A stretch of 64,000 bases of DNA from a phage, in assembly GCA_017676145.1 (NCBI GenBank), contig GCA_017676145.1_3628.1. The stretch is one strand, 5' to 3'. Shown here in pieces: positions 13,444 through 37,991 of this stretch (positions are counted from its first letter, which is position 1; every line of letters starts with the position of its first letter). The position numbers and the translations under genes are program-made. The notes below the pieces were generated by a model, which had not been told where the DNA came from, did not search any database, and worked only from the letters and a program-made list of their open reading frames with translations.

Positions 13444-15516
13444 TTATGAGAAGTCTGGCGGGACAACATCTTCTACATACCCTTTCAGAGCAACCTGCCC
13501 CATATGGAGCACGGTAGAATCCCTAGCGGTAACAGTGATGCTGTCAGACATTACTTGCGGGTATGCCCACACATACTGTTTTACCTCAGGGTATCTATAC
13601 TCTATGGTTGCCATGTTCCCGCAGATACATCTCCATAAAAATTCTTGGTAATTCCTGGTTGGGTCGTAGCCATATACCGGAGCAAGCTCTTTGCTAGGAA
13701 CGAACCCTGCAAGGTATTGTATTTCAGACGGTTGCCAACCTAACTTAACGATAGGTATGTTTACAGACTCTTTTGCCTTTTCAATACCACCCTGCATCAC
13801 CCAATCGTAGCACTCAGTGCAGAAGAAATCAAGAGCACCTGCTTCCTTTTTATATTGGTCAGCAAGGTTCAGCTTTTGCGTAAGCTCGGTTTCCATAATG
13901 GTCGGGAAAAACAGCAAAGCTGTCATCTGAGCCGATGCAGCGTGTGCTTTTATTGCCTTTGAAATAGCTGCAATACGAGCGCCAAGCTTACCACGACAAA
14001 ATGCTACATACTTGTCATAAACACCGCCAGTTTTAGGATCGTCAATAGTCCCAATGTCTAGTGCATATTCACCAGTCTCATCATAAAACGCCTGTTTTGT
14101 AGGGTAGTCATAAATACAAGGCTTACGAGTATCGGTATTGAACCACCACCACGGTTCACCAATCTGCATAATTACTGGCAGGTTGTTTCTCATAGCGGCT
14201 GATGCAAAATTCTTAAATACTGCAGTAAGGAAATTCATACCCTCTTCAATGGTTGGAGACAAGAGGTAACTACAAGGCGTATAGCCTGTTTTAGCATAGT
14301 TATCGTTCCAATCTCTCTGGGTCCATTCCAACGGACAGGCATCGCTATAAAGCTCAAAGCTTACAGACTGCATAACGTCGAAGTCATGTCGCTTGGCATT
14401 ATACATAAAGTCATCGTGCCATTTATAAGCTGCAGCGTTTAGAGCCCCTGTCCTGTTTATAGACCATTGGGTTCCGGACCATGTGTAATCATAATAATGG
14501 CTCATACCAACATAATGGTTTATGGTTCCGGTATAGCCCAGACGCTTGATATTGCTCACCACCCTTAAAGGAGATACGTTCCACATATCGTCATATGCTG
14601 TGCAGATCCCAACGTCGTGCTCTTTCACCTGGATATTGTTAAGTTGCATCATTTTCCAGCCTGTGTCTGGCTGAAGCAGATCTAGACGCAACTCACACTC
14701 TACATTTTCCGTTCTTGGGTCTGTACTATTACTTACCCAATCTTTAGGCATAAGTGGTATTAGAATCCTTCTCACCTGTCGAGGATCAACACCCATCATG
14801 TTGTTGTTCTGGTCCATCCCGACGCAGTCCTCGAAATCAATATGAATTTCTGCAACATTCTTATCCTCTGAGATGCTGACAGCATATTGAGCTAAAGGAA
14901 CATAGATGATTGTGCCATCAACAAGGTCTACAGTCATAATCATCTTTTCAGGGGTGGAGAAGTTGCTGGCATTGGTTATTGACATTCTGAACCAAAGCTT
15001 GGTGTTTCTCATCTCGTAGTGATCATCAAATCCAATGCCGAAATGGTCATACTTGTCAACTGTTTCCCAAATGCACCCAGCCATGCCTCCATATGTTCTT
15101 GACACTAAACGGTTAATACAGCAGTTATTATCTGCAACAATACAGGTGCTTTCAGTCTGCTGGGTAGTTGTAACCCAATATCTTGGGTGAAACATTCTCT
15201 CCTCAACAGTATCCCAAGATATTCTGTCAAGATTCTCATCTGAAACTATTGTGCATTTCGCTCTTTGTGTTCCAATCATAACCCCTTGAGAGTTTGATGA
15301 AAACTCCATAAAGAAGCTTCTTGGCAACCTGTTTGGCAATTTGTCAACAATTTCTACAGGGATCTCAATACTGGTTGCCCCAACCGGGATAGTTACATCG
15401 CCCTCAACATGATCATAATCTCTACCTGGAACTGCAGTATCCTGAACTGTGCGGTAATGAAACCGTGCAGCCATCGTAGAGTAATCACGGTAAGGTTTAA
15501 AAACAGCTGTTGCCAT
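13444..15516 (-). CDS. virion protein with Calx-beta-like N-terminal domain (690 aa), possible tailspike/enzyme
   Basis: N-terminus GRDYDHVEGDVTIPVGATSIEIPVEIVD resembles the Calx-beta motif; large Trp/Tyr-rich body. Confidence 0.45.
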   Translation of the reverse strand: MATAVFKPYRDYSTMAARFHYRTVQDTAVPGRDYDHVEGDVTIPVGATSIEIPVEIVDKLPNRLPRSFFMEFSSNSQGVMIGTQRAKCTIVSDENLDRISWDTVEERMFHPRYWVTTTQQTESTCIVADNNCCINRLVSRTYGGMAGCIWETVDKYDHFGIGFDDHYEMRNTKLWFRMSITNASNFSTPEKMIMTVDLVDGTIIYVPLAQYAVSISEDKNVAEIHIDFEDCVGMDQNNNMMGVDPRQVRRILIPLMPKDWVSNSTDPRTENVECELRLDLLQPDTGWKMMQLNNIQVKEHDVGICTAYDDMWNVSPLRVVSNIKRLGYTGTINHYVGMSHYYDYTWSGTQWSINRTGALNAAAYKWHDDFMYNAKRHDFDVMQSVSFELYSDACPLEWTQRDWNDNYAKTGYTPCSYLLSPTIEEGMNFLTAVFKNFASAAMRNNLPVIMQIGEPWWWFNTDTRKPCIYDYPTKQAFYDETGEYALDIGTIDDPKTGGVYDKYVAFCRGKLGARIAAISKAIKAHAASAQMTALLFFPTIMETELTQKLNLADQYKKEAGALDFFCTECYDWVMQGGIEKAKESVNIPIVKLGWQPSEIQYLAGFVPSKELAPVYGYDPTRNYQEFLWRCICGNMATIEYRYPEVKQYVWAYPQVMSDSITVTARDSTVLHMGQVALKGYVEDVVPPDFS

Positions 15517-16202
15517 TAACCCTCCTGTCTAGTTGCGTTTACTGTAATACTTTCACAATAAATAGTTGTGGTGTCCCAATCAGGTCTTACGTCAGGAACA
15601 TATAGCAAAGTAGCCAACCCACCAACTCCGAACTGGTTTTCTTCCCACACCGATCCGAAGCCGAGAGCTGTAGAATCGCCTTCAAAACCAAAAGCTTGTC
15701 CTTGCGATTCTGTAAGACGCAAATGACAAGGCAGTGGTAGCATATCTAAGATCTGATCTATGGACTGTAATATGTCAAAGCAAGTTTTTCTAATGTTTAT
15801 GTCAAATCTAAAGTTGTCACCTTTCCACGTATCGAAATTGTCTCTTCCGAACAATTGTCGCAAGGTTGAGATGACATCTTCACGAGTCCCGCCCCTCGAT
15901 GCTGCTGCCTGCTGAATAATCAGGGTAGCACGAAAATCAGCATCTGAAAGCCCATTCCGAAGAATACCGAGTTGATTACCAACTTCGTCAAGGTATCTTC
16001 CACTGGCATTGTTAAGCAATCTTCCTTCAGCCAAACCTACCAGCATCTTATCAACATTCTCCAACCTTTTAAGGTACACGGTTAAGAATGTGACTAAATT
16101 AACCTTCTCAGCCAGAAAATCTCCAGGCAGGTAGTCAAGACCCCCCTGAACAAAATCTGGCAGAGTGTGGATGTGGTTAACATCCGACTTAATCTCTGCC
16201 AT
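15516..16202 (-). CDS. baseplate protein (P2 gpI-like, tentative)
   Basis: 228 aa gene overlapping the next by 1 nt directly downstream of a baseplate-J-sized gene; assignment by position and size only. Confidence 0.3.
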   Translation of the reverse strand: MAEIKSDVNHIHTLPDFVQGGLDYLPGDFLAEKVNLVTFLTVYLKRLENVDKMLVGLAEGRLLNNASGRYLDEVGNQLGILRNGLSDADFRATLIIQQAAASRGGTREDVISTLRQLFGRDNFDTWKGDNFRFDINIRKTCFDILQSIDQILDMLPLPCHLRLTESQGQAFGFEGDSTALGFGSVWEENQFGVGGLATLLYVPDVRPDWDTTTIYCESITVNATRQEG

Positions 16203-16214
16203 ATCCCCGCCGCC

Positions 16215-17705
16215 TTAAATAGTTTGTTGGAAAGTTATATTGCTTTCATCGAGGTCAAACACCTCGGTCATGTTCGCAACAACATCGTTTGTAGTGTAAG
16301 CTTCGTCAGAGGCTCCTACAGGTTTAACTTGAATTACCAATCTGTTAAATCTGCCTATCGACACAGCAGCCGATGCAGCACCTACCAATTGGATATTATA
16401 CAACGTATCGGCAACATCTAAGCCGTTAACAACTTGCAAAAGAGCCTCTGTAATGGCATCTTTTTCGGTAGTAGAAAGCGCAGCACCTGAGTAGGTAATT
16501 CTCATATCCAGGCGGTAAGTGTTTGCCTTAGAATAATAAATCCTTTCAGTCTGACCGTCTGATGTGGTAATATCGTAGAAGATATTCCCATAAGTTCTAT
16601 TTGTGCAAGCTATGGTTTGATACAGCGCCTGACAGATATCCTCTGTTGCACCACCGAACACCACCACTTGAAACTTATAAGGTGGTATACCTTTCGCATC
16701 CGTTTTATCGGTGTTGTTAGAGAACACTCTTACTTTCTCAACACCCTTCACCTCGCTTACAGCGCTAAGGATTGCAGGACGGGTAGCTTTAGATGTTAAC
16801 TGTTTAGTGCTGGAAGCTCTTAAGCGATACTCTGAGTCCTTCTCAACATCCCTGCCCTCATTGAATCTTTCTCGGTTGGTAAGCTTGATAAATCCGCTGG
16901 GAGTAGGCGACATTGTTGTCACGGTTTCTGCCTCTCTTGACAGCTCACCAGCCTCGTTAGCTATAACATCTAAGGTGATAGTTCTTTCACCTACAATCGG
17001 GGATACTCTGAAATCTACTCTGCTATTAAGACCAACTTGATCAAGATTCGAATTGTATCCTATCCACAACGTTCCTGTCAACATATCGATCTGAATCAAA
17101 TCGTCGTTCAACAGGGTTGTATTATCTACAATGAATTGCTTAATCTCGCCGTAAAAGCTTGGTAAATCAGAAGAGTCCAGAGACTTATCGGTTAAAACCA
17201 GACTTTTTGTTTTGATACTTCCATCTGTCTGGTTGGTAATTTGAAAGTTGTATTTACCAATCCTTAGGTCTGGAGCATTTATTCTGTGAGCAATAAGATT
17301 CCCTGCTACTTGCACATCGTTGCTAAGAACAAAGTTGCCACTGTCCAGCGTATAAGTTTTGGAATCATAAATCATATTGTACGGCACAGTTGTGTTGATT
17401 GTCAACTGGCAAGTACCCGATGATTTAGAACGGCCTCTTCGGTAAATACCCTGTCTTCCAAGAAGCTCATCCAGGTAAATACCTTCTGCCCCATACAGCG
17501 TCTGTGATGCGTATACAGATGCTGCCATAAGAATAAGTTGATACTCTCGCTCGTTGAAGATAGTGGTCAGCTTATCTGCAACGGAGTTACTCTGTACGTT
17601 GAAGTTTTCGCCAAAAGCACGGATCAGGCTTTGCTTAGTTTCAACGATTAGGTCATTTAGGGTTGGTATAACGAAACCAGCCTCTGTCAATCCATACTTA
17701 GCCAC
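16215..17705 (-). CDS. baseplate wedge protein (gpJ/gp6-like, tentative)
   Basis: 496 aa; position between central fibre gene and gpI-sized gene; no decisive motif. Confidence 0.35.
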   Translation of the reverse strand: MAKYGLTEAGFVIPTLNDLIVETKQSLIRAFGENFNVQSNSVADKLTTIFNEREYQLILMAASVYASQTLYGAEGIYLDELLGRQGIYRRGRSKSSGTCQLTINTTVPYNMIYDSKTYTLDSGNFVLSNDVQVAGNLIAHRINAPDLRIGKYNFQITNQTDGSIKTKSLVLTDKSLDSSDLPSFYGEIKQFIVDNTTLLNDDLIQIDMLTGTLWIGYNSNLDQVGLNSRVDFRVSPIVGERTITLDVIANEAGELSREAETVTTMSPTPSGFIKLTNRERFNEGRDVEKDSEYRLRASSTKQLTSKATRPAILSAVSEVKGVEKVRVFSNNTDKTDAKGIPPYKFQVVVFGGATEDICQALYQTIACTNRTYGNIFYDITTSDGQTERIYYSKANTYRLDMRITYSGAALSTTEKDAITEALLQVVNGLDVADTLYNIQLVGAASAAVSIGRFNRLVIQVKPVGASDEAYTTNDVVANMTEVFDLDESNITFQQTI

Positions 17706-17772
17706 GTCACTCCTCCGGTATGAAAATCTCTACAAGGTATTTTACCAAATTTTGTAACAATAGTCAATCTGA

Positions 17773-17802
17773 GCATAAAAATAAACCCCGCCGAAGCGGG
17801 GC
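17773..17802 (-). terminator. rho-independent terminator
   Basis: On minus strand GCCCCGC-ttcg-GCGGGG hairpin followed by TTTATTTTTAT, immediately downstream of gene ending at 17811. Confidence 0.65.
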
Positions 17803-17810
17803 TTTAAAGG

Positions 17811-20800
17811 TTAGTCGTGAGACTCGTTCCAAGGTCCCTGGAAGCTTGAGTTAGAACGACTAACGATCACAGTGGGACAGGAGATTGTGACACCTGTCAC
17901 GCTAGACGTTGACCACGGTGTGTAAATCTCGATAACAATGTCTATAGTTTGTTCACCCAGACCTGTTATCCCTACCGCACACATGCCGTTGTTGTCGTTA
18001 AAATACTTCTTGCCAGCAAGGATCTGATGACCAGCTATCCATGCATTCAGTTGGGAGCTGGCAAGAGTACCATTCAGTTTAAAGAAGAATGTTACGTTCT
18101 TACCCTGACCTGAAACGTTATCTACGTATCTCCACCTCCAACGGCAAACCCTTTGCTGGGAGTTATATACTGGAGCACAATCCCCGTAAGTCCTGTGTGC
18201 AACAATTGCACCTTCGAACTGGTTAGCGCGGATAACAGAAGCTTCTACACGACCACGGAAGGTACCTCCGGTTGCATCTATGGTGCCTCTAAAGCTACCA
18301 TTATTGGCATAAACATCCCCACGGAAGGTACCACTGGTGGCGTTAACTGCCCCTGTGAAGTTACCTGCACTAGCGTTGATGTTACCTTTCACCCACACAT
18401 CCATAAACTGGGCGTGCCCGTTCTTGTTAATATACCAACCGTATTTGTGGTACCCGTTGCCATCGTAGTTGTTAGACGAAATTTCTTGTGCAATCTTGGC
18501 AGAAGAGATCGTCCCGTTCTCTATAAAGGCATCTTTCAAGAACGCTTGGTTGTTCTTAATTGCGAAAGCAAGGGTTGCTGTTCCATTCCCAGGGTTGTAT
18601 ACCGCAAAGTTGTTTGCACTAACCATGAAGTATGATTGAACTTGGCCTCCAGAACCTTCCATGCCCAATTGGATACCTGCCACATACTTATTCCCTGCGG
18701 AGTCTACCTGTATTTTTGTGCCCCATTGAGCATTTACTTTGCCCTCTAAGTCGGTCACAGCCTTAGATGTTGTAGCCACTGCAGCTCTTAGCTCTGATAC
18801 ATCCCCAACATCATCAATGATCTCCTGCTTAGCAACAGCAAGTTCTTGACGAATAGCTGACGCTGTGCCGTTAATAAGATCCACAGTTGCTTTGTTGGTA
18901 TCGGAGATTGTAGCGTCCAGTGCTGTTTTTGTGGAGGTCAGCTTACCATCCAAATCCGCAATCGCCTGTTTGTTGGTAGAAATCTCCCCACGTGCAGAAG
19001 TTATCTGCTCAGACAGTGCGGAGGTTTTCTGATTCAACAAATCTGTGGTGGCCTTGTTGGTATTGGCAATCAAGGTATTGAGATCAGTTTTTGCGGTAGT
19101 TATCTTACCATCAAGGGTGGCATAGTTCTTAGATACCGTCGCGTTTGTCTGACTGATCTTTTGATCCAGAGTTTCAGAGGTCCTGTTAAGAAGATCCACT
19201 GTCGCCTTATTGGTGCTCAAGATGCTTGCGTCAAGTTCTGTTCTCTGGGTATTGATCTTGCCATCCAGAGTTTTATCTCCGGCAAGGTATCCGCTCTCCA
19301 CTCCACCTATTTGTTCTACCAACTCCCCTTTGGCTGCAACCAATTTCTCGTCTAAAGCCTCTGTCTTTTTGTTCAGAAGATCAGTGGTTGCTTTATTGGT
19401 TGTCTCAATCAGGGATGCCAGTCTTCCACTTTCAGTGTTCAGATCGTTGGTGAACTTGTTCTGTGCAGCAACAAGTTTCTTATCCAGCGCTGTGATATTG
19501 CCATTGACATCCTCAAACTTCTGAGTTGTCTCTGTAACTACAGCACCTATCCTATCCCCAAGTTGTTGGAATGCCTCATCTACCCTTCCGTCCATGTACT
19601 TGTTAAGTTCTGTGACACGATTTTCAACCTCTTCAATAGAGGAATCTAAAGTGCTCATCAACTCTTTATAAGTTTCTGTCTTTTTAAATTCAGCATCTAT
19701 CTGAGGCATCAAATCTTCAATGGAGGTATAGCAGCGTGCAGCACACTCTACAAACTGAGAACTACCAAAAGCATTTGTGGTTCGAATATACCAATAATAA
19801 ATCTTATCGTTCTGCAGACCTTCAGATGTCCAAGTTGAACCAACACCCATGCGGGTGGCTTTTGAAGTAACGGTTGCATCACTTGTGTCCGGCAACCTTG
19901 TCATACCAGATGTCCAAAAGTCATACTGGGTGCTTACACTTGCCAAGTCCCTACTGTGTGGAATCAGGGTGATAGCAAAGTACCCCTGCTTAACTTCTAC
20001 AGAAACCGGAGCTTCAGGTGCCTGAATGTTAAACTCGCAGTACGCTTCTGGAGATACACCGCCTTTATAAGATGTTGCAACCACGGTTGCTGTGTATGAC
20101 CCTTTGGTCAATCCTTCTACGCGGACAAACTGCTCGACTGTTTGTGCTGTCCAAATAATCTCTCCGTTCTTTCTTACCTGCACAATATTTTGAGCGTAAG
20201 TCCCAACGTTGTCCCAAGCTAAAACACCGTGAGTTACTTCTCCAGCTTGGAGAACGGAATATCTGAAGTTTTGCGGTTGAGCTACACCAGATGGGGATAT
20301 CGGAATATCTACATCGCCAGAATCCGGAAGTTGCCCTGTGGCATCATTCCACTCTTTAGCATCTTGACGAAGTTTTACCTTGACACCGCCCTTTTTGGTG
20401 AACTCCCATTCAAGAACCCTCATTTCTTGGCCCACTATACCAATACTTGGGAGGTCCATTGTAACATAACGGCCAGGCTTAAATTTAAAACCTCGCATAT
20501 TGCAGGTGACTTCAATAATCCTGCCAGCTCTAGCACGTCTTAAGAAGATTGCAGAAACACGTTGAGCTTGATAAGGACTGGTAACAAAGCGATAGTCTAT
20601 ATCGATTATCTTTCTTTCTCCATCCTTCTCTATCCACTCTGGTACAAACACTGATGGGAAATCTGTTTCAGAATACCCTTTGGTCGGACTAGTGAATCTG
20701 CCAGTTATCGTGTTAGATCTTTTGTCAAATGAGGCTTCCGGATAGATCTTAACCTCACCACAGACACAGTCCTCACTCAATGTCATTGTTGCCGGACCAT

Positions 20801-21650
20801 AGTATGCACCAACCAGCAAACCATACTTACCAGCAACATAACTAAGGTCTGCACCGCAAGCTTTCAGCATTTCTGCCATAATACTTGCTGGGGCCTCATC
20901 CATGTCAAACTCACCGTTAATGGTGTAACGTCGCTCACTGGTGCCGTCAGCGTTTTTTACCGCCTCGTCGCATATGTTGGCAGCCTCCTTGAAGGACTCC
21001 CAGTTGATGGTTTCGTCAGGACATTTAAGGTACGTTCTTAAATAGTCTAGGATCACCAAGGCCGCGTTATTGGTATACACCTCTTTACTGGTGCGAGGAT
21101 CATAACATTTTTTACCAACCTTGATGAGTGTAACGTTTGGCAACCCAAAAGGAAACTTGTTAGGGTCAAACCTGAAGCTAACACGTAGCCAGCTGATCCC
21201 TCTACCTATCATGTCCGGTGACCACGATGGGCAGTGTGTGCCCATGAAAGGATCAGAGGTTTTTCTGTCGTTATGTAGCTCCCACGATACCAAATCTCCA
21301 TACGAAGAAATAGGATTACCGTCGATAAGTATATCTTCTATACCTTCTAGCGGGTGATTGGCAAGAACAATGGCACAATGGAGGGTTCTGTCTCTATCCT
21401 GCTCCAAAAACGCAAGCAATCCAGATGTGCGTGTCTTCCCATACACTACAGAGCAAGGTGCAGCAGAAGATCTGAGAAGCTTTTGTCTATCTTGCTGACT
21501 TCTGTAAGATTTGTTACCCTCGAAAATCTTATCCAGAGTTCTGGTGGTAACAGTGTTCAGACTGTCAGCCAGAGCTGCCTTGGATGCGTTCCAGTCATAG
21601 CTTGAAGATCTTGCAGAAGCAACGATGTTATCAATCATTGCAATTGGCAT
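17811..21650 (-). CDS. lambda gpJ-like host-specificity/central tail fibre protein (1279 aa)
   Basis: C-terminal half shares collinear blocks with lambda J recalled from memory (KYVAGIQLGMEG...NNFAVYNP vs HYVAGIGLSMED...NRIAFIDP; FN3-like GYFAITLIPH.../YYWYIRTTNAFGSS); central coiled-coil-like repeats. Confidence 0.7.
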   Translation of the reverse strand: MPIAMIDNIVASARSSSYDWNASKAALADSLNTVTTRTLDKIFEGNKSYRSQQDRQKLLRSSAAPCSVVYGKTRTSGLLAFLEQDRDRTLHCAIVLANHPLEGIEDILIDGNPISSYGDLVSWELHNDRKTSDPFMGTHCPSWSPDMIGRGISWLRVSFRFDPNKFPFGLPNVTLIKVGKKCYDPRTSKEVYTNNAALVILDYLRTYLKCPDETINWESFKEAANICDEAVKNADGTSERRYTINGEFDMDEAPASIMAEMLKACGADLSYVAGKYGLLVGAYYGPATMTLSEDCVCGEVKIYPEASFDKRSNTITGRFTSPTKGYSETDFPSVFVPEWIEKDGERKIIDIDYRFVTSPYQAQRVSAIFLRRARAGRIIEVTCNMRGFKFKPGRYVTMDLPSIGIVGQEMRVLEWEFTKKGGVKVKLRQDAKEWNDATGQLPDSGDVDIPISPSGVAQPQNFRYSVLQAGEVTHGVLAWDNVGTYAQNIVQVRKNGEIIWTAQTVEQFVRVEGLTKGSYTATVVATSYKGGVSPEAYCEFNIQAPEAPVSVEVKQGYFAITLIPHSRDLASVSTQYDFWTSGMTRLPDTSDATVTSKATRMGVGSTWTSEGLQNDKIYYWYIRTTNAFGSSQFVECAARCYTSIEDLMPQIDAEFKKTETYKELMSTLDSSIEEVENRVTELNKYMDGRVDEAFQQLGDRIGAVVTETTQKFEDVNGNITALDKKLVAAQNKFTNDLNTESGRLASLIETTNKATTDLLNKKTEALDEKLVAAKGELVEQIGGVESGYLAGDKTLDGKINTQRTELDASILSTNKATVDLLNRTSETLDQKISQTNATVSKNYATLDGKITTAKTDLNTLIANTNKATTDLLNQKTSALSEQITSARGEISTNKQAIADLDGKLTSTKTALDATISDTNKATVDLINGTASAIRQELAVAKQEIIDDVGDVSELRAAVATTSKAVTDLEGKVNAQWGTKIQVDSAGNKYVAGIQLGMEGSGGQVQSYFMVSANNFAVYNPGNGTATLAFAIKNNQAFLKDAFIENGTISSAKIAQEISSNNYDGNGYHKYGWYINKNGHAQFMDVWVKGNINASAGNFTGAVNATSGTFRGDVYANNGSFRGTIDATGGTFRGRVEASVIRANQFEGAIVAHRTYGDCAPVYNSQQRVCRWRWRYVDNVSGQGKNVTFFFKLNGTLASSQLNAWIAGHQILAGKKYFNDNNGMCAVGITGLGEQTIDIVIEIYTPWSTSSVTGVTISCPTVIVSRSNSSFQGPWNESHD

Positions 21651-22087
21651 TAATACCTCCAGACATCAACAACGATAGAATCTTTCATATCGAACGTAAA
21701 GATCCCTTTATCACCTTTCGCCCAAATCTGGTTGTTCCAGAACACACCAGCGGTGAGGCCGTTCAGACCTTCGAAAATAACAATATCGCCACGCTGAACC
21801 TGTTTAGGAGTATCCAGTCTAGTCAAAAAGAGATCAAAAATAGTAGGCAGGTGTGTGGTTTTGAAACGGAGCATGCACCATCTCTTGCTTTCCAACTCTG
21901 TTTTATACGTTCCTTCAAAGTTAGAAAGAAAATCTGTTCCGTATTGGGCATCAACACACTTAGCCGCAAAAGTGCAACAATCGTGGAATCCCCATTCAAA
22001 CGGGACGGTGGCTTCTTCGTCAAATACTTTCCACAATTTTTCTTGCCAGTCTACTAAACGAGGGTGTGTGCTCATTAAACCTCCCAA
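21650..22087 (-). CDS. tail-associated protein with Cys/His motif (145 aa), possible gpK-like peptidase-fold protein
   Basis: Immediately upstream of J-like gene with 1-nt overlap; HDCCTF motif; assignment tentative. Confidence 0.3.
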   Translation of the reverse strand: MGGLMSTHPRLVDWQEKLWKVFDEEATVPFEWGFHDCCTFAAKCVDAQYGTDFLSNFEGTYKTELESKRWCMLRFKTTHLPTIFDLFLTRLDTPKQVQRGDIVIFEGLNGLTAGVFWNNQIWAKGDKGIFTFDMKDSIVVDVWRY

Positions 22088-22641
22088 ATGATCGGGCGGC
22101 TCGCCACCTGATCCACATATTTAAAAAATCTGTCATTATCGTTTCTTGAGCTATGGCTTTCCTCTGTGTATCGGTAAGGAAAACCTCTTAACCAGCTGTT
22201 GAAGATGGAAGAGATGGATATGGACAAAGCACTATTCTCCCCTGTCTGAATAGCCATGTCCGTTATAAGGCCGTCAAACAAGCCATTAGTTGTAACAGGC
22301 AAACCATTCTCCATAGCGGTGATATACAACGTGGCACGGCAACCGGAATACTCAGTCTTCAGAAGATCACCTACATACTTGGGATCAAACCCGTTCAATG
22401 TTGCTACCACAGATCCGAAGTTGGTGGCATCTTTCTCAGACACAGCAGTCAATGTTGCTGATCCACCTATCCCTATAAAATGTTGCCCCTCAATAACCAC
22501 AACACCAGTTCCTGAGCACACCCTGACAGTCCCTGTTGGCAGCTCTAGCTTTGCAGCAATTAAGATCTCAACACCATCAAGCTCTAGCTTTTCAAGAAAT
22601 AAATTATCTAATGGCGCTCTTATCATCTTAGAAATCCTCAA
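22075..22641 (-). CDS. tail protein (188 aa), unassigned
   Basis: Overlapping, co-oriented ORF in tail tip gene block. Confidence 0.35.
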   Translation of the reverse strand: MRISKMIRAPLDNLFLEKLELDGVEILIAAKLELPTGTVRVCSGTGVVVIEGQHFIGIGGSATLTAVSEKDATNFGSVVATLNGFDPKYVGDLLKTEYSGCRATLYITAMENGLPVTTNGLFDGLITDMAIQTGENSALSISISSIFNSWLRGFPYRYTEESHSSRNDNDRFFKYVDQVASRPIIWEV

Positions 22642-23218
22642 AGAAGTTGATAACTATATTGTCACCTTTCTGCATAGCATCAACCTTTTGCTTAATTTTA
22701 TAAAGATCTCGGATATGAAATCTACCCTTCGGAGATTGAGTTATTATTTTCATGGTATCCCCTGCGGCAATGGGTTTCCTAAGTCTTGGGGATATGTTTA
22801 TAACAGCGGCCCCAACACCATCACTTCGTACTGAGGCTGTCACCACTTTCAACTCATCATTGACAGATATTTTATCTCCAGCTCTGGCTATATCCCTGTT
22901 AGGCTCCCAACCAACCGTCTTCAAAAAATCGTCGTTACCAGTCGGTCCTAGAGCGATTGGCTCATTGGAGGTCACTGAATGCCCATAAGCCTTGATAAGA
23001 AAAATGTTTCCATCTTTGTAAACCTGATCAACAAAACTTTTAAGCTCTAACAACTGAGACTCGCTGATATTGGAAACCGTCAAAGTGCCTTTCCAATTAG
23101 GTGTGGCATAGGTTACTTTTTGCGTTTTACCTGTAAACGGGCTTTTAAACGTAACAATATCTGCCAACAACTCCAATCTAATGTCTGGAAGGTATCTAGG
23201 CCTTTCCCATAAAAACAT
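22628..23218 (-). CDS. tail protein (196 aa), unassigned
   Basis: Overlapping, co-oriented ORF in tail tip gene block. Confidence 0.35.
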   Translation of the reverse strand: MFLWERPRYLPDIRLELLADIVTFKSPFTGKTQKVTYATPNWKGTLTVSNISESQLLELKSFVDQVYKDGNIFLIKAYGHSVTSNEPIALGPTGNDDFLKTVGWEPNRDIARAGDKISVNDELKVVTASVRSDGVGAAVINISPRLRKPIAAGDTMKIITQSPKGRFHIRDLYKIKQKVDAMQKGDNIVINFFEDF

Positions 23219-23281
23219 TGTGCCTCCAGGTTAAACAATCATGATAATTATTTTACCAGATTTTAAGTTAATACGCAATAT

Positions 23282-23310
23282 AAACAAAAAGCCCCCGCCG
23301 AAGCGAGGGC
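23282..23310 (-). terminator. rho-independent terminator
   Basis: On minus strand GCCCTCGC-ttcg-GCGGGGGC hairpin followed by TTTTTGTTT, directly after stop of 23318..27124 gene. Confidence 0.65.
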
Positions 23311-23317
23311 AAAACAG

Positions 23318-31165: not shown

Positions 31166-31843
31166 TTAGTGCGGTCCACTTGTCTCACCATCAGGGCAAG
31201 AGTGGGTATGACCTTTATATTCTGCATAGAATGAGTCCAAATCCACACCAGCAGCAGTTATGATTCTACCCGATGGGTCTATTGTGGCACCATTCATTCT
31301 AATATTTCCATCCACAGCAGCTCGTAAATTGGCAGCTCCGTTGGTGAAAGAAAACTCCCCGCTACTGTCGCACCGTAATGTCCCACCAGGTGTTTGAAGC
31401 TCAAAATCACCAGAAGGTGTCAGCTTAAAATAAACCCTATCATTCCATAACTCTACATTATCAGGATCGATCTGCAGAGCATTAGAGTCTGAATGAACAG
31501 AGGTTATTGCCCACCCCGGAAACAGGCCGTGAGTTTGTTGATCATCGTTATTGTTTTCATTTCTCTCTGAAAACTGCAACCCTACAACATCTCCAGCCTT
31601 AATAGGGAGTGTTAACCTTGCCTTCCCACTGTTTGCAGACATCACCTGGATTGGCACATCATAGATAAGAGGGTATCTCTCAACATCTCCGTCATCAAAC
31701 GTGGTTTCAGCTATTGGCTGCACGGCTGCGGAAGGGATACTGTAATCTACGCTGACAACTCTAGCCCTGATACTGGTGTGGTAGTCCCTCATTATTTTTT
31801 CTATAAAGGATCTTACGGCAGCATCTTTCCTATTTATTGCCAT
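31166..31843 (-). CDS. baseplate central spike protein (P2 gpV / Mu gp45-like)
   Basis: 225 aa; OB-fold-like N-terminus and C-terminal YKGHTHSCPDGETSGP apex motif (HxH) typical of gpV-type spikes. Confidence 0.55.
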   Translation of the reverse strand: MAINRKDAAVRSFIEKIMRDYHTSIRARVVSVDYSIPSAAVQPIAETTFDDGDVERYPLIYDVPIQVMSANSGKARLTLPIKAGDVVGLQFSERNENNNDDQQTHGLFPGWAITSVHSDSNALQIDPDNVELWNDRVYFKLTPSGDFELQTPGGTLRCDSSGEFSFTNGAANLRAAVDGNIRMNGATIDPSGRIITAAGVDLDSFYAEYKGHTHSCPDGETSGPH

Positions 31844-32841
31844 TATACCTCCTCAGTTTTGTCAACAACTCCACCTATTGTTTCCCCAAGGCCAAGCTCT
31901 GTAGTGTAATCACCGCCCTCTATGGTGCCCTTATGGTGCACCGTGATCACCTTATAGAAGCCTGTGTATTGCCTGCTTTTAAGATAAATGGTGGACTCTG
32001 GGAGGATAGCTCCGTTAAGGCATGTTGTTACAGTAAGACCAACATCCTCTCTCGGGTTTTTCTTTTTCTTACTTGTGCCACCCTTCGCAGCAGCTTTAGC
32101 TTTTCGTTTTTTAGCAGGTTCTGGGTTTTTAGGGGTAGGTGATCCGTGCATCCCAGACTCTGCACTTATTTCAAACACAGAGTCCTTGAACCTTTTTCCA
32201 ACCTTGGTCCAATACAAAGCCCCATCCTGAACGCTAAACGTCGAGTTGGTCAGCCTTGCAAACCTGCGGAGGTTCTCTGCAGTGTTTCCAGAGAAAGCCA
32301 TGGAGTATTGCAGAGTCTGGTTTCCAAAACCAACAACCCTACCTTTTGGCAAGTTCATATCCTTCAGCAGGTCATTAAGCACAGAGTTCAGAGGTGTGCC
32401 TTTCTGATAAGATCTTGTGCTTTGGCACTTAATGATGTTCTCAGTGCCATCACCAAAGATGAACTTAGTTTTTCTGGTCGGGCCTTCCCATCTGTCCTCA
32501 ACAAACTCTACAGTTCCGGAGAATATCAACTGGTTCTCATTATCATAGCCAGCCTCAAACATAACTGCAAGAGCATCAGCTTGATGCATATCTAGATAGT
32601 TGACTGTATCGTCAGACAGATTGTAAACTGTCACATAGCCTTTGTTTGGCTCTTTAGTATTGTCCTTTTGTATGTCAAACTCTATATTGGCAGCACCAGT
32701 GTCCGAGCTAATCTCATAAACTCCGGAATCACTCTCTCCTTTCTTTTCAACAGATTTTGGGATATTGGTTTTTGATTTACCGCCATGCTCTACAGGGCGA
32801 CCAAACAACAGTCGCCATGTTCTACGTCTGTACTCTGCCAT
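31843..32841 (-). CDS. baseplate hub/assembly protein (332 aa, tentative)
   Basis: Position between tape measure-proximal genes and spike; Lys-rich C-terminal tail. Confidence 0.35.
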   Translation of the reverse strand: MAEYRRRTWRLLFGRPVEHGGKSKTNIPKSVEKKGESDSGVYEISSDTGAANIEFDIQKDNTKEPNKGYVTVYNLSDDTVNYLDMHQADALAVMFEAGYDNENQLIFSGTVEFVEDRWEGPTRKTKFIFGDGTENIIKCQSTRSYQKGTPLNSVLNDLLKDMNLPKGRVVGFGNQTLQYSMAFSGNTAENLRRFARLTNSTFSVQDGALYWTKVGKRFKDSVFEISAESGMHGSPTPKNPEPAKKRKAKAAAKGGTSKKKKNPREDVGLTVTTCLNGAILPESTIYLKSRQYTGFYKVITVHHKGTIEGGDYTTELGLGETIGGVVDKTEEV

Positions 32842-33221
32842 TATTCTAACCCTTGCTGTTCCTTGTAAAGATCAACTGGGGTACCGTATACAAGTTGCAG
32901 CTCAGATCTTGCTCCAAGGTTGTATCTTCCAACCCGTCCCCAATATTGATCGTCTTTAAACGACAGCACCATCAATCTACCTTTCGGTAAGTCGTCTCTG
33001 TAATGCAGTCCGTCTAGAATATCTTGACAAGCTGTTACTTTTCTGGTTACTAAAGGGCTGTCACCTACCGGACCAAGAGATAACCACCAGGACTCATCCC
33101 TCTCATTCCATTGCATACGCATTTCATACGTCTCATTGTCTAAAACAACACGCATGGTTTGATCAGGAAAGCCGTCAATGTCCCACACAAAGGTGATTAT
33201 GCACCAATCTTTAAGCTCCAT
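32841..33221 (-). CDS. tail/baseplate protein (126 aa), unassigned
   Basis: Overlapping co-oriented ORF. Confidence 0.35.
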   Translation of the reverse strand: MELKDWCIITFVWDIDGFPDQTMRVVLDNETYEMRMQWNERDESWWLSLGPVGDSPLVTRKVTACQDILDGLHYRDDLPKGRLMVLSFKDDQYWGRVGRYNLGARSELQLVYGTPVDLYKEQQGLE

Positions 33222-33233
33222 TACACGCTCCCC

Positions 33234-34145
33234 TTATTTTCCGTTAACTTTGTTGTAGTTTCCCTGTTCAGATGGGACTATGGTAGAAGGTCTTCCATAT
33301 TCCTGATAATACCAATCCGCAGCAGATTGGGTAACACCGTTTTCATCCGTCCACATCATAGATTTGTATGGCTGCCACTCTTCTGCAGCATTTGTGGATG
33401 CAGTGTCTGCAAATGCCCCTGTGTCCCTCTTGTTACCTACGTTACTGCCATTCTTACAATCGTTGACAGCACCTTTTTGCTGGGTCTTGCCTACTTTCTT
33501 AGGGTTGCTGTATACAGTTGCATTAACAACCTTGTTCAAGTAGAATGTGCGGAACTCTGTGAGTTCTACATCAAACACCATCGCAGCGCCTTCACCAACA
33601 GACTTGTTGGCAGAAAGACTGGTTATGATGTAGTTCTCAAGGAGTCTCTCCTCGGTAACCAAAGAAACCAATTGGCGCTTATTAATGATCTCAGTCAAAG
33701 CCTCCAGTGCAGCGCCCGGTCGCATAGATGCTGCAGGGTTTTTAGAGTCAGTATTCCTGTCAATGTAGTTTTGCTCATAGATTATATGTGGTGATGTATT
33801 TACCCTACCAGTAAAAGAAAATACACCATCTTTAATTACAGCGTGGTCTGACAGGGTAGATTTATCTTCCACCGCAAAATCAGTCTTATCAACAGAATGT
33901 TTGAAAGAGTAATTCTCAACCTGATCGAAGATAATGGCAAGATCGTTAGTAAAGTTTTTACCCTTCATCTCCGTATTGCGACCACCATAGTTAAGACCGC
34001 TGACAAACATAGTGTATTTTACATCACTTTCAGTTTGCTGCTCTGCCTTTTCAGCCTTTGGAGATTTAACCTCTTGAGGCTTGTACAGGTCTTTTTCATC
34101 AACTATATTGCTTGGCATAACCTCTCCAGGACACTCCGATACCAT
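33234..34145 (-). CDS. tail protein (303 aa), unassigned
   Basis: First gene downstream of tape measure; co-oriented. Confidence 0.35.
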   Translation of the reverse strand: MVSECPGEVMPSNIVDEKDLYKPQEVKSPKAEKAEQQTESDVKYTMFVSGLNYGGRNTEMKGKNFTNDLAIIFDQVENYSFKHSVDKTDFAVEDKSTLSDHAVIKDGVFSFTGRVNTSPHIIYEQNYIDRNTDSKNPAASMRPGAALEALTEIINKRQLVSLVTEERLLENYIITSLSANKSVGEGAAMVFDVELTEFRTFYLNKVVNATVYSNPKKVGKTQQKGAVNDCKNGSNVGNKRDTGAFADTASTNAAEEWQPYKSMMWTDENGVTQSAADWYYQEYGRPSTIVPSEQGNYNKVNGK

Positions 34146-34184
34146 CTAAATATTGTATCATAAAATAGCCGTTTTTACAACACC

Positions 34185-34211
34185 GATAAAATAAAGGGGG
34201 CCGGAGCCCCC
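34185..34211 (-). terminator. rho-independent terminator
   Basis: On minus strand GGGGGCTCCGGCCCCC hairpin followed by TTTATTTTATC, just downstream of tape measure gene. Confidence 0.6.
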
Positions 34212-34216
34212 GTTTA

Positions 34217-36556: not shown

Positions 36557-36611
36557 GCTTTCCTCATAATAAAAAAGGGCCAGATCCCAGAAAAGGAATC
36601 CGGCCCTTAGA

Positions 36612-36860
36612 TTATCCTCTCCTGCGCTTAGCTTTCGCAGCAGCTGCGGCAGCCTTCTGCTCCCGCTCCATTTCTCTGTTTTGGACGGTATCTAGGAATT
36701 CTTCGATATCAAGATACTCACAGAGCTTCAGGAAATACGCCATATCTGCAAGATTTAGCGATTCAAAATTTTCCCCTTTGAAATTCTTGAGCACCCTGCA
36801 CCAAAGAAAGTCGAACCAGTTAAGTGAACTGTTCTTGGCTGCCCACTCACTGGCCCTCAC
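36612..36860 (-). CDS. tail assembly chaperone, -1 frameshift extension (GT-like C-terminal part)
   Basis: ORF in -1 frame relative to 36872..37345; its frame is open upstream through the end of the upstream ORF and past a UUUUUUC slippery heptamer. Confidence 0.55.
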   Translation of the reverse strand: MRASEWAAKNSSLNWFDFLWCRVLKNFKGENFESLNLADMAYFLKLCEYLDIEEFLDTVQNREMEREQKAAAAAAKAKRRRG

Positions 36861-36871
36861 AACAACCTTGC

Positions 36872-37345
36872 TTATTCCTGCTCTTCCGGAGTCTGATCCA
36901 GATTGTTCACCTGCTGGATCATACCCATCTGCTGTAACATCTCCAGAAGGCTTCCTAAACCGTCTTGTGTGAAAAAACAGCCGTAGTTAACCTCCAGAAC
37001 CTTACCTGCCAGCTTAATCATCTCCAGCAGATGCCCTGCAAACACAACATCAGGGTTAAGCTTATCCACACCATCCACGGTAATATCTTCGAACAAGATT
37101 TTAAATAACTCTTCGATAGAGTTATCATCAAGTTCTTGGAACAGGTAAGCCAGGGCTGTAGGAAGGACCTCTGCCATATTCTGACCGCCTGAGAGAATAG
37201 ATCCACCGATAGCACCTAGCGGGACAGCTACAATCTTACCGATTTTAGGCATGTTTTTCATTGCTTTCATCGGTCCCCAGTGGGTGATCACAAAGTTGTG
37301 CCCTGCTAAATCAATCTCTGTTGTAGGTCTAAAGTTTATAGCCAT
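36872..37345 (-). CDS. tail assembly chaperone (G-like)
   Basis: 157 aa acidic protein immediately upstream of tape measure; classic chaperone position. Confidence 0.55.
   Translation of the reverse strand: MAINFRPTTEIDLAGHNFVITHWGPMKAMKNMPKIGKIVAVPLGAIGGSILSGGQNMAEVLPTALAYLFQELDDNSIEELFKILFEDITVDGVDKLNPDVVFAGHLLEMIKLAGKVLEVNYGCFFTQDGLGSLLEMLQQMGMIQQVNNLDQTPEEQE
36971..36977 (-). other. candidate -1 programmed ribosomal frameshift site (U UUU UUC)
   Basis: Heptamer TTTTTTC in the X XXY YYZ register of the chaperone frame (codons tgt ttt ttc), ~30 codons before its stop; -1 frame open from here into 36612..36860. Confidence 0.45.
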
Positions 37346-37388
37346 TTTATAGCATCCTTATTAGTCATGTTGTGCACCATATTTGTGT

Positions 37389-37417
37389 ATTTTACCATGA
37401 TTATGGTGCATTGTCAA
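37389..37417 (-). promoter_or_regulatory. sigma70-like promoter (TTGACA-17-TAAAAT) with flanking inverted repeat
   Basis: On minus strand TTGACAatgcaccataatcatggTAAAAT; inverted repeat TGCACCATA / TATGGTGCA brackets the -10; located upstream of chaperone/tape measure genes. Confidence 0.5.
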
Positions 37418-37454
37418 TTTAACCTTTCAAGCAATTCAAGAACGTGTGTCAAAA

Positions 37455-37489
37455 CCATAAAAGCAAAAAGCCCCACCCGAAGGTGAGGC
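37455..37489 (-). terminator. rho-independent terminator
   Basis: On minus strand GCCTCACC-ttcg-GGTGGGGC hairpin followed by TTTTTGCTTTTATGG, downstream of 157-aa tube-like gene. Confidence 0.65.
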
Positions 37490-37507
37490 CTATGCTAAAG
37501 TGTGCCC

Positions 37508-37981
37508 TTAGATAATACCTGCAAGACCTGCGAGGCCAGTGAGAGCACCAGTGATGTTGTCACGGTTGAGCCATGCATCCAGAATACCGATATCCCAGTC
37601 CAGTTGACCTACTTCGGTTCCGTAAGTCAGGTCAGGCTGCTTCTGAATCCAACCGATTGTGGAAATACCAGGACCCTGGCTGCCCTCCAGCAGAACTGGG
37701 AAGAATACCAGACCAGTAATCGATGCCTGTTTCTGCCAGTCAGAGAGGTAAGCGTTCCATACAGAAGTGTTCTGCAAAGACACAGTCATAACACCTGATT
37801 GGTTACGAGACAGTGCCGCAGACATTTCGCCATCCACACCAACATGAGGGTAGATGTTGTCTTCGTTTCTTGAAACAACGATCTTGGTGTCAGCAGCGAA
37901 GCCAGTGACACGCTGCTGCATCAGATACAGTTTGACCTTTTTAGGGTCATACGCATAAGGAGTTAAAATTTGAGTTTCCAT
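37508..37981 (-). CDS. tail tube protein (tentative)
   Basis: 157-aa gene immediately downstream of a 458-aa sheath-sized gene and followed by a terminator; pattern typical of contractile tails. Confidence 0.45.
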   Translation of the reverse strand: METQILTPYAYDPKKVKLYLMQQRVTGFAADTKIVVSRNEDNIYPHVGVDGEMSAALSRNQSGVMTVSLQNTSVWNAYLSDWQKQASITGLVFFPVLLEGSQGPGISTIGWIQKQPDLTYGTEVGQLDWDIGILDAWLNRDNITGALTGLAGLAGII

Positions 37982-37991
37982 CTAGGCTTCC

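What the first reader, a model, noticed from the sequence alone, without database searches (positions are those of the whole stretch)
17811..23218. Lambda gpJ-like fibre and tip-type genes embedded in a baseplate-type (gpV spike, sheath/tube-like) tail module
The 1279-aa protein shares collinear C-terminal blocks with lambda J and is preceded by small overlapping genes resembling the lambda M-L-K-I tip set. The same operon also has a gpV-like spike with an HxH apex motif, a sheath-sized/tube-sized gene pair and five or more other large fibres. The mixture suggests a mosaic multi-fibre baseplate.
Basis: partly seen in the sequence, partly recalled or inferred. Interest (0 to 1): 0.45.

Follow-up and report, generated by a model that had tools for sequence, protein, structure and literature searches.

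The report
Siphovirus tail-tip cassette inside a myovirus
This rV5-like E. coli phage has a contractile tail with its own complete baseplate, yet it also carries a four-gene tail-tip set of the kind built by non-contractile phages such as lambda and T5, and published transposon data suggest it serves as an optional host-range fibre.

Summary
The window is a Vequintavirus (rV5/FV3-like myovirus).

Genes 23218->17811 on the minus strand are collinear homologues of the cassette that follows the tape-measure gene in siphoviruses. Identity to Seuratvirus KurtStettler is 33/40/45/53%. The four products are:
- DUF6950, an NlpC/P60-like analogue of gpK that keeps the Cys motif but has no conserved His;
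- a 1279-aa J/pb3-type hub-plus-central-fibre protein.

There is no gpI equivalent and no tape measure.

The phage also has a full myoviral set: sheath, tube, tape measure, tube initiator, plug, hub, HxH spike and wedge. The cassette is therefore an add-on.

It has a terminator and a late-promoter-like motif on each side. It is absent from the same site in PVP-SE1, Av-05, an Aeromonas relative and phAPEC8. It is under strong purifying selection.

HIDEN-SEQ data for Bas54 show insertions in all four genes tolerated on K-12 and CFE303 but lost on isolate CFE311.

Best reading: a captured tail-tip complex reused as an accessory receptor-binding fibre. Where it docks on the virion is unknown. I rate it a new variant of a known kind, of moderate interest.

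The parts
23291..23310 (-). Intrinsic terminator-like hairpin (GCCCTCG-CTTCGG-CGGGGGC followed by a T-run). It ends the upstream fibre gene and bounds the cassette on its 5' side.
   Evidence: The 13-mer core CGCTTCGGCGGGG has only two exact copies in the window, one at each cassette boundary.
23249..23258 (-). TGGTAAAATA, an extended -10-like motif. Candidate late promoter for the cassette. A GGAGG ribosome-binding site precedes the ATG at 23218.
   Evidence: There are four exact copies in the window, all on the minus strand and all intergenic (17738, 23249, 37388, 40909). With one mismatch allowed there are 22 matches against 5.8 expected. Promoter function is inferred, not shown.
22628..23218 (-). 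Distal tail protein (Dit) of T5 pb9 type, 196 aa. Homologous to rV5 gp40 and bas54_0028.
22075..22641 (-). Hub-1 protein of gpL/DUF2163 type. 188-aa ORF with a probable ATG start at 22626, giving 183 aa. Homologous to rV5 gp39 and bas54_0029.
21650..22087 (-). DUF6950 protein, 145-aa ORF with a probable ATG start at 22075, giving 141 aa. NlpC/P60-like analogue of lambda gpK. Homologous to rV5 gp38 and bas54_0030.
   Evidence: Pfam DUF6950 1.3e-33. The motifs F-W-G-x-x-D-C and R-G-D are conserved, but no His is. Weak NLPC_P60 hits for 3 of the 21 sequences scanned, best E 0.033. hhalign against lambda K aligns the Cys and GD motifs, E 0.0099. 45% identical to KurtStettler bas22_0019.
17811..21650 (-). 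J/pb3-type hub-and-central-fibre protein, 1279 aa. Homologous to rV5 gp37 and bas54_0031.
   Evidence: 53% identical over residues 48-721 to the KurtStettler 'J-like tail tip protein'.
20181..21473 (-). J residues about 60-490: tail-hub domains.
   Evidence: The profile of the N-terminal 500 aa hits T5 baseplate hub protein pb3 (7zhj_b) at 1.5e-18, profile positions 175-489 against 428-766, plus 69-126 against 265-319. hhalign against lambda J aligns 158-399 with 219-482, E 7e-6.
19695..20174 (-). J residues about 493-652: two Ig/FN3-like domains.
   Evidence: Pfam Ig_J 4e-5 (below cut-off) and Ig_J_second 1.4e-30. BLASTP block 498-684 against lambda J 667-850.
18783..19694 (-). J residues about 653-956: long alpha-helical, coiled-coil-type shaft with four TNKAT[TV]DL[LI]N repeats at residues 751, 813, 864 and 918.
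   Evidence: for the repeats. Weak coiled-coil family hits. The RBPseg paper describes a Vequintavirinae fibre with large coiled-coil domains and an N-terminus 'common in central tail fibers'. Relative to KurtStettler J, residues about 722-908 are extra. About 46 of 117 Vequintavirus records diverge in 18890-19300.
18261..18782 (-). J residues about 957-1130: lambda-type central fibre domain.
   Evidence: Pfam Phage_Tail_Tip 2.4e-38, residues 957-1097. PDB sequence hits to lambda J, A8 gpJ and the F2-pyocin fibre.
17811..18260 (-). J residues about 1131-1279: C-terminal tip domain, the presumed receptor-binding domain.
   Evidence: About 30% identical, with gaps, to the C-terminus of KurtStettler J. 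The two share the ending PTVIVSRSNSSFQG / PTIIVSHGSGSFTG. The BASEL paper reports that KurtStettler targets LamB. The receptor-binding role here is inferred.
17783..17804 (-). Intrinsic terminator-like hairpin directly after J. It bounds the cassette on its 3' side.
17738..17767 (-). Promoter-like site (TTGACT, 17 nt spacer, TAAAAT with a TG extension) ahead of the wedge genes.
   Evidence: PVP-SE1 has a single equivalent terminator-promoter module at the cassette-free site.
15516..17705 (-). Context: myoviral wedge genes. Baseplate_J-type protein of 496 aa (16215-17705) and a 228-aa partner (15516-16202).
   Evidence: Their Bas54 orthologues are essential.
31166..39368 (-). Context: the phage's own contractile-tail core. 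Sheath, tube, chaperones, tape measure, Dit-like tube initiator, plug, hub, HxH spike.
   Evidence: The phi92 homologues are placed by cryo-EM.

Best explanation
The four genes at 23218->17811 (minus strand) are a complete siphovirus-type tail-tip cassette without its tape measure. It encodes a Dit, a gpL-like hub-1 protein, a K-like DUF6950 protein and a J/pb3-like hub-plus-central-fibre protein. An ancestor of the genus Vequintavirus acquired it, and it sits at the terminator-promoter junction just upstream of the baseplate wedge genes.

It is transcribed late as its own unit. I infer that it assembles as it does in siphoviruses: a J trimer whose N-terminal hub domains pair with three hub-1 subunits, capped by a Dit ring, with DUF6950 acting as an assembly factor or minor component.

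This tip-like complex carries no DNA conduit function. That role belongs to the phage's own tube, hub and spike. Instead it is mounted on the virion as one of several alternative receptor-binding devices. A fibre some tens of nanometres long ends in a lambda-J-type tip domain that binds a surface receptor present or accessible on some E. coli strains. On those strains it is required for infection. Where other fibres suffice, it is dispensable.

Shown: homology and folds of all four proteins, gene order, absence from the relatives examined, purifying selection, low-level J protein in rV5 virions, and conditional essentiality in Bas54.

Inferred: the oligomeric architecture, virion presence of the three small proteins, the docking site, the receptor, and the direction of transfer.
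For: Identity of the phage: 96% identical to phage FV3, and 91 Vequintavirus records cover at least 80% of the 7-kb query around the cassette.

Collinear homology:
- The four proteins match, in order, the genes that directly follow the tape measure in KurtStettler (33/40/45/53% identity) and PY54 (37/29/44/38%).
- Roseobacter CRP-831, Pseudomonas phiPSA1, Vibrio phiVP505 and Serratia Serbin show the same layout. Vibrio K394 has the same order with extra small genes between the hub-1 and DUF6950-position genes.
- tblastn of the 188-aa protein finds 118 records at 95% identity or more; every one of these listed is Vequintavirus-like. All other hits are below 60%, and every one inspected lies in a 31-83 kb genome.

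Add-on status:
- A complete myoviral hub, spike and wedge set is present.
- The cassette is absent from the syntenic region of PVP-SE1, Av-05, Aeromonas 4L372D and phAPEC8.
- The phi92 cryo-EM paper lists no J-like component.
- A terminator plus TGGTAAAATA module lies on both sides, against a single module at the PVP-SE1 site.

Functional evidence:
- dN/dS against Bas51 is 0.024, 0.00, 0.074 and 0.026, similar to the essential wedge gene at 0.017.
- rV5 gp37 was detected in virions with 4 peptides.
- HIDEN-SEQ on Bas54 classifies bas54_0028 to 0031 on K-12 as Non-essential, Intermediate, Non-essential and Non-essential (TA-site saturation 0.96, 0.80, 0.94, 0.81). The flanking genes 0022-0025 and 0032-0040 are Essential.
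- On isolate CFE311 all four genes are depleted (log2FC -6.42, -5.06, -5.29, -6.44; adjusted p 0.00000). Fibre genes 0026 and 0027 go the other way (+3.7, +3.9).
- Insertions are tolerated on CFE303.
- Because 0025-0027 insertions are tolerated where J is required, the J module does not depend on those fibres for mounting.
Against: - No structure shows where, or whether, a Dit-hub-J complex sits on the virion. The RBPseg cryo-EM of Bas49 and Bas54 resolved only three other fibres.
- The three small proteins were not among the 19 proteins detected in the low-depth rV5 proteome.
- Depletion of insertions in the three upstream genes on CFE311 could be a polar effect on J, because the genes overlap and share one transcript. 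Their individual requirement is unproven.
- The DUF6950 link to NlpC/P60 is weak (E 0.01-0.03) and the catalytic His is not conserved.
- The conditional-essentiality data come from one preprint, one phage and one isolate. Its sheet labelled 'K-12 vs CFE303' duplicates the CFE311 run.
- Gain in Vequintavirus, as opposed to loss in its relatives, rests on four relatives examined here plus phi92 from the literature.
Confidence: 0.72

Rival explanations
1. Only the J-like protein is a virion component: a trimeric side fibre anchored through its N-terminal domains. The Dit-like, hub-1-like and DUF6950 proteins act only as assembly chaperones or scaffolds, or their apparent requirement is a polar effect of the transposon on J.
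For: The rV5 proteome detected gp37 but not gp38-40. In lambda, gpK is needed for tip assembly but is not reported in the mature tip (established knowledge, not tested here). The four genes overlap and share one transcript, so insertions upstream may reduce J expression.
Against: - All three small genes are as strongly conserved as J, with dN/dS 0.00-0.07.
- The Dit keeps the family's invariant residues and models with high confidence as a two-domain pb9-like protein.
- The proteome found only 19 proteins, so small low-copy proteins could easily have been missed.
Confidence: 0.2
2. The tip complex sits on the tail axis, docked beneath or around the central spike as a true central fibre. Receptor binding by J would then be relayed directly to the hub, as in siphoviruses.
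Against: - The phage has a closed hub and an iron-type HxH spike whose phi92 homologue forms the exposed tip.
- No tape measure or tube partner is encoded with the cassette.
- rV5 micrographs report five to six thin 70-nm fibres, which would fit peripheral copies.
- There is no direct evidence for either position.
Confidence: 0.08
3. One reading: the J-like and tip-like proteins are integral parts of a mosaic baseplate and are needed to build the tail.
For: The genes lie between fibre genes and wedge genes in the same orientation. BASEL records annotate the 183-aa protein as 'baseplate protein'.
Against: Insertions in all four Bas54 orthologues are tolerated on K-12 and CFE303, whereas hub, spike and wedge genes are essential. 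PVP-SE1, Av-05, the Aeromonas relative and phAPEC8 show no cassette in this region, with homologous hub and wedge genes. The cassette has its own terminator-promoter boundaries.
Confidence: 0.03

Closest known systems
Tail-tip cassette of Queuovirinae siphoviruses (Seuratvirus KurtStettler/CAjan) and of PY54-type phages
   Same: Same four genes in the same order, with overlapping starts: Dit of about 195 aa, hub-1 of about 194 aa, DUF6950 of about 140 aa, then J. Identity is 33-53%. The J C-terminal tip domain is of the same type.
   Different: - In the siphoviruses the cassette directly follows the tape measure and forms the end of a non-contractile tail. Here there is no adjacent tape measure or tube gene, and the host phage is a myovirus with its own hub.
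- J carries about 190 extra residues of repeated coiled coil.
- Hub-1 lacks the conserved C-terminal tail.
Lambda tail tip (gpM, gpL, gpK, gpI, gpJ)
   Different: - No gpI.
- The Dit has two domains like pb9 (196 aa), against the 109-aa gpM.
- Hub-1 has no conserved cysteines, whereas lambda L has a cysteine-rich C-terminal region (the latter from memory, not tested).
- The K analogue lacks the MPN half and the His.
- No detectable pairwise sequence similarity for the small proteins.
T5 tail tip (Dit pb9, baseplate hub protein pb3)
   Different: T5 fuses hub-1 and the J-type hub into a single pb3 protein, and its receptor-binding protein pb5 is separate. Here hub-1 is a separate gene and the tip domain is part of J.
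DUF2163-type hubs of JBD30, roseophage R4C and the RcGTA-type tip (Dit, hub, peptidase, megatron)
   Different: Hub-1 here is only the N-terminal half of those proteins of about 270 aa. The equivalence with GTA g12-g15 is recalled from memory and supported only by weak hits.
phi92 and PVP-SE1 multi-fibre 'Swiss army knife' baseplates
   Same: Homologous sheath, tube, hub, HxH spike, wedge and several fibres.
   Different: Neither carries the Dit-hub-DUF6950-J cassette.

Membership tests
Lambda J / COG4733 tip attachment (central tail fibre) proteins | N-terminal tail-hub domains homologous to lambda J and T5 pb3 | tested here: met
   Profile against PDB: T5 pb3 1.5e-18. hhalign against lambda J 219-482, E 7e-6. 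phrog_31, 2e-164.
Lambda J / COG4733 tip attachment (central tail fibre) proteins | Ig/FN3 domains followed by the Phage_Tail_Tip fibre domain, collinear with lambda J | tested here: met
   Pfam Ig_J_second 1.4e-30 and Phage_Tail_Tip 2.4e-38. Two collinear BLASTP blocks.
Lambda J / COG4733 tip attachment (central tail fibre) proteins | Reaches NCBIfam's curated cut-off for lambda_TipJ (full-length equivalence) | tested here: not met
   151.8 bits against a cut-off of 1950. It is a relative, not an orthologue of lambda J.
Lambda J / COG4733 tip attachment (central tail fibre) proteins | Encoded downstream of the tape measure in a non-contractile tail operon, and closes the distal end of the tail tube | tested here: not met
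   There is no tape measure or tube gene next to the cassette. The phage's tape measure lies 12.6 kb upstream, followed by myoviral hub genes. The position in the virion cannot be tested with these tools.
Distal tail protein (Dit), T5 pb9 type | Two-domain fold: belt domain plus OB-like domain | tested here: met
   [not shown]
Distal tail protein (Dit), T5 pb9 type | Hexameric ring between the last tube ring and the hub | not testable with these tools
   No multimer prediction or structure is available. The phage has a separate Dit-like tube initiator at 33234-34145.
gpL / DUF2163 hub-1 proteins | Hub-domain fold shared with lambda L and the JBD30, R4C, T1 and Chi hub-1 proteins | tested here: met
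   [not shown]
gpL / DUF2163 hub-1 proteins | Cysteine-rich (Fe-S) C-terminal region of lambda L, or the C-terminal domain of the 270-aa DUF2163 proteins | tested here: not met
   The protein is 183-188 aa with no conserved cysteines, and it even lacks the C-terminal tail of its siphovirus homologues. The lambda L Fe-S cluster is recalled from memory.
gpK-type NlpC/P60 tail assembly proteins | NlpC/P60 catalytic Cys motif and the GD motif | tested here: inconclusive
   D-C and R-G-D are invariant in 7 homologues and align with the lambda K motifs at E 0.0099. NLPC_P60 scores E 0.033 in 3 members. These values are weak.
gpK-type NlpC/P60 tail assembly proteins | Catalytic His and an N-terminal MPN domain | tested here: not met
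   No His is conserved after the GD motif, and at 141-145 aa the protein has no room for an MPN domain.
Lambda gpI tail assembly protein | A fourth small gene between K and J | tested here: not met
   The stop codon of the DUF6950 gene overlaps the J start. No ORF lies between them.
phi92/rV5-type contractile tail and baseplate | Sheath, tube, tape measure, tube initiator, plug, hub, HxH spike and Baseplate_J wedge | tested here: met
   Compared with the phi92 structure paper.

The most novel reading that the evidence does not exclude
A whole siphovirus tail-tip complex (Dit ring, hub and J fibre) assembles without a tube or tape measure and docks on the baseplate of a contractile-tailed phage. 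There it acts as a receptor sensor whose binding helps to trigger sheath contraction. This would be a direct example of a complete sub-assembly moving between the non-contractile and contractile tail lineages. It would also reveal a new kind of fibre-baseplate joint, with a Dit ring used as an adaptor.
Probability: 0.3. Interest if true: 0.72.

Novelty: new variant of a known kind. Interest (0 to 1): 0.55.

Why it matters
Vequintaviruses are broad-host-range candidates for phage therapy and biocontrol, and which fibre does what in them is still unresolved. Recognising gp40-gp37 as one siphovirus tip module explains why four adjacent genes behave as a unit in conditional-essentiality screens. 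It predicts an outer-membrane-protein-type receptor, by analogy with LamB for the related KurtStettler J. It also marks a self-contained, separately transcribed cassette that could be swapped to retarget host range.

Structurally it poses a sharp and testable question: how does a Dit-hub-J complex, which normally needs a tube and a tape measure, assemble and attach to a myoviral baseplate?

In evolutionary terms it shows exchange of a whole multi-protein sub-assembly between tail types, not just of single fibre domains.

Tried and rejected
- Pairwise BLASTP of the three small proteins against lambda M, L and K found nothing. hhalign of family profiles against single lambda L and M sequences was also negative.
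- PDB sequence searches with the single small proteins and with 7-member profiles found nothing significant. No member of these sequence families has a solved structure that HMMER can detect. Fold comparison was needed.
- The first word-indexed homologue search with the 188-aa protein returned only near-identical proteins. Diverse homologues had to be gathered by tblastn of phage genomes and fed back as profiles.
- I looked for the small proteins in the rV5 virion proteome. They are not among the 19 proteins listed, which is uninformative at that depth.
- I looked for the serotype or surface type of isolate CFE311 to guess the receptor. It is not in the held supplements.
- I looked for papers describing a siphovirus tip module in Vequintavirus and found none in the library. 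RBPseg only remarks that the fibre's N-terminus resembles central tail fibres.
- Rejected: that the similarity is limited to generic FN3 repeats. Hub and fibre domains match as well.
- Rejected: that the cassette is a decaying remnant. dN/dS is 0.00-0.07 and it is conditionally essential.
- Rejected: that it hangs from the 865-aa or 1268-aa fibres or their 222-aa adaptor. Insertions in those genes are tolerated on CFE311, where J is required.

Full report
**What the window is.** The 7 kb around the finding are 96% identical to Escherichia phage FV3 and 93-95% identical to many rV5-like phages of the genus Vequintavirus. A single minus-strand structural operon runs from about 47 kb down to 2.6 kb.

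**The phage's own tail.** Profile searches confirm a complete contractile-tail set:
- sheath (37992-39368) and tube (37508-37981);
- tape measure (34217-36556);
- a Dit-like tube initiator (33234-34145) and a Pam3-gp18-type plug;
- a hub (31843-32841);
- a 225-aa spike with a phi92-spike-type N domain, ending ...KGHTHSCPDGETSGPH;
- a Baseplate_J-type wedge protein (16215-17705) and its 228-aa partner.

The phi92 homologues of these proteins have been placed by cryo-EM. There the spike's HxH motifs coordinate iron. Other large fibre genes (865, 1268, 690, 581 and 1878 aa, plus two short fibres) surround the finding.

**The J-like protein.** ORF 17811-21650 encodes 1279 aa, the length reported for rV5 gp37.
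- BLASTP against lambda J gives two collinear blocks of 30% identity: 498-684 vs 667-850, and 916-1126 vs 808-990.
- The similarity is not confined to FN3 repeats. phrog_31 'central tail fiber J' matches residues 143-1137 at 2e-164. Pfam finds Ig_J_second and Phage_Tail_Tip. PDB sequence hits include lambda J and the F2-pyocin fibre.
- A profile of the N-terminal 500 residues hits the T5 baseplate hub protein pb3 at 1.5e-18 and aligns with lambda J 219-482.
- The layout is: hub domains (about 60-490), two Ig/FN3 domains (about 493-652), an alpha-helical shaft of about 300 residues with four TNKATxDLxN repeats, the lambda-type fibre domain (957-1130), and a tip domain of about 150 residues.
- The tip domain resembles the C-terminus of the KurtStettler J protein. 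That phage uses LamB.

**The three small genes.** They show no pairwise similarity to lambda M, L or K, and no sequence or profile match to any solved structure. Other evidence places them.
- The 145-aa protein is Pfam DUF6950. Its invariant F-W-G-x-x-D-C and R-G-D motifs align with the NlpC/P60 motifs of lambda K, but only weakly. No His is conserved.
- So the M, L and K positions are filled by analogues. There is no I.

**Where the cassette comes from.** tblastn of the 188-aa protein finds 345 phage records. Of these, 118 are at 95% identity or more, and every one listed is Vequintavirus-like, including mislabelled 'Campylobacter' records. All the rest are below 60%, and every one inspected lies in a genome of 31-83 kb.

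In five inspected cases the same four genes directly follow the tape measure of a non-contractile tail module: KurtStettler, PY54, Roseobacter CRP-831, Pseudomonas phiPSA1 and Vibrio phiVP505. Serratia Serbin has the same order after a 48-nt gap. Vibrio K394 has the same order but with one small ORF after the tape measure and extra small genes between the hub-1 and DUF6950-position genes. Identities to KurtStettler are 33, 40, 45 and 53%.

Relatives of the window phage with homologous wedge genes lack the cassette in the syntenic region: PVP-SE1, Av-05, Aeromonas 4L372D and phAPEC8. The phi92 structure paper, which screened all phi92 proteins for fibre-like folds, lists nothing like it.

**A separate transcription unit.** The cassette is flanked on each side by a CTTCGG-loop terminator. 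The two terminators share an exact 13-mer found nowhere else in the window. Each is followed by a TGGTAAAATA extended -10-like motif that recurs at other intergenic sites of the operon. PVP-SE1 has one such module at the empty site. Capture of a siphovirus tip cassette at a terminator-promoter junction in the Vequintavirus ancestor is the simplest reading. Loss in the relatives is not formally excluded.

**Is it functional, and what for?**
- Against phage WalterGehring the four genes have dN/dS of 0.024, 0.00, 0.074 and 0.026, like the essential wedge gene at 0.017.
- rV5 gp37 was found in virions at low level. gp38-40 were not among the 19 proteins detected.
- The most informative data are in the supplement of the HIDEN-SEQ preprint on Bas54 (MaxBurger). 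Its genes bas54_0028 to 0031 are the four cassette genes.
- On K-12 they are classified Non-essential, Intermediate, Non-essential and Non-essential. The hub, spike, wedge and several fibre genes around them are Essential.
- On the uropathogenic isolate CFE311, insertions in all four are lost (log2FC -5.1 to -6.4). Insertions in the 865-aa and 1268-aa fibre genes become better tolerated.
- On CFE303 the cassette is again dispensable.
- The cassette therefore behaves as one unit that determines infection of particular hosts. Its function does not depend on those two fibres or their adaptor.
- Two caveats apply. Insertions in the three upstream genes may be polar on J. The preprint's 'CFE303' resampling sheet duplicates the CFE311 analysis.

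**Mechanism proposed.** By analogy with solved siphovirus tips, J trimerises, its hub domains pair with three hub-1 subunits, and a Dit ring caps them. DUF6950 would help assembly. The complex is displayed on the virion as an alternative receptor-binding fibre. DNA delivery remains the job of the phage's own tube, hub and spike. The oligomeric state, the presence of the small proteins in virions, the docking site and the receptor are all inferred. One possibly relevant detail is that the hub-1 protein has lost the C-terminal GSKKDAPxFxY tail conserved in its siphovirus homologues. This might reflect the missing tape-measure or tube partner, but that is speculation.

**Comparison with what is known.** Automated annotation already labels these genes 'distal tail protein', 'tail protein' and 'central tail fiber J'. 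The rV5 paper noted COG4733 and a hub-like HHpred hit for gp37. BASEL calls it a lateral tail fibre. RBPseg remarked that its N-terminus resembles central tail fibres and did not locate it in cryo-EM maps. I found no paper in the library that recognises the four genes as a complete siphovirus tail-tip cassette in a myovirus.

**Verdict.** This is a known kind of machine in an unusual setting and role: a new variant of a known kind. It is moderately interesting, mainly because it raises a concrete structural question and identifies a portable host-range module.

Noticed in passing
[not shown]
   Followed up: partly
window 17738, 23249, 37388, 40909 (minus strand); near-matches at 11406 and 47108: The exact 10-mer TGGTAAAATA occurs four times, always intergenic and on the coding strand of the structural operon. 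With one mismatch there are 22 matches against 5.8 expected. It is likely the -10 region of the phage's late promoters.
   Followed up: partly
window 22075-22100 (C-terminus of the hub-1 protein): The Vequintavirus hub-1 protein ends at ...IIWEV. It lacks the GSKKDAPxFxY tail conserved in most siphovirus homologues. The significance is unknown.
   Followed up: no
window 18890-19300 (J coiled-coil repeats): About 46 of 117 Vequintavirus records match the J C-terminal 1079 nt but diverge in the repeat-bearing shaft segment. The variable part of J is therefore the shaft, and the tip domain is conserved across the genus at 87-98% nucleotide identity. The J gene probably corresponds to one of the strongly variable fibre stretches reported by the BASEL paper, by my estimate of its alignment coordinates.
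   Followed up: partly
GenBank records MG0656xx, found with window 17000-24000: Eighteen records named 'Campylobacter phage' with host C. jejuni match E. coli Vequintaviruses over this region; the 188-aa protein is 98.9-99.5% identical in those listed. Probable mislabelling or contamination of that data set.
   Followed up: no
L005 (Bas54) genes bas54_0024-0027 and 0041; window equivalents 30437-31153, 29759-30427, 27160-29757, 23318-27124, 2616-8252: On CFE311, insertions in the gene directly after the spike gene (bas54_0024, annotated 'baseplate protein'), in the 222-aa adaptor and in the 865- and 1268-aa fibres become more tolerated (log2FC +3.7 to +6.5). The 1878-aa intimin-domain fibre becomes partly required (-2.2). 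The result for the gene after the spike is odd and may come from a few jackpot sites.
   Followed up: no
HIDEN-SEQ preprint, Extended Data Table 8, sheet Data S6: The sheet labelled 'resampling_K-12_vs_CFE303' shows the command line and numbers of the CFE311 comparison. It is identical to sheet S7 in the rows I could compare, so the CFE303 gene-level statistics seem to be missing from the file.
   Followed up: yes
window 29759-30427 and 23318-27124: The 222-aa protein and the 1268-aa fibre both carry the Tail_spike_N (TSP1/gp66-type) N-terminal domain. The 1268-aa fibre ends in a Peptidase_S74 intramolecular chaperone domain. This points to a branched, CBA120-style adaptor system for those fibres.
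   Followed up: no
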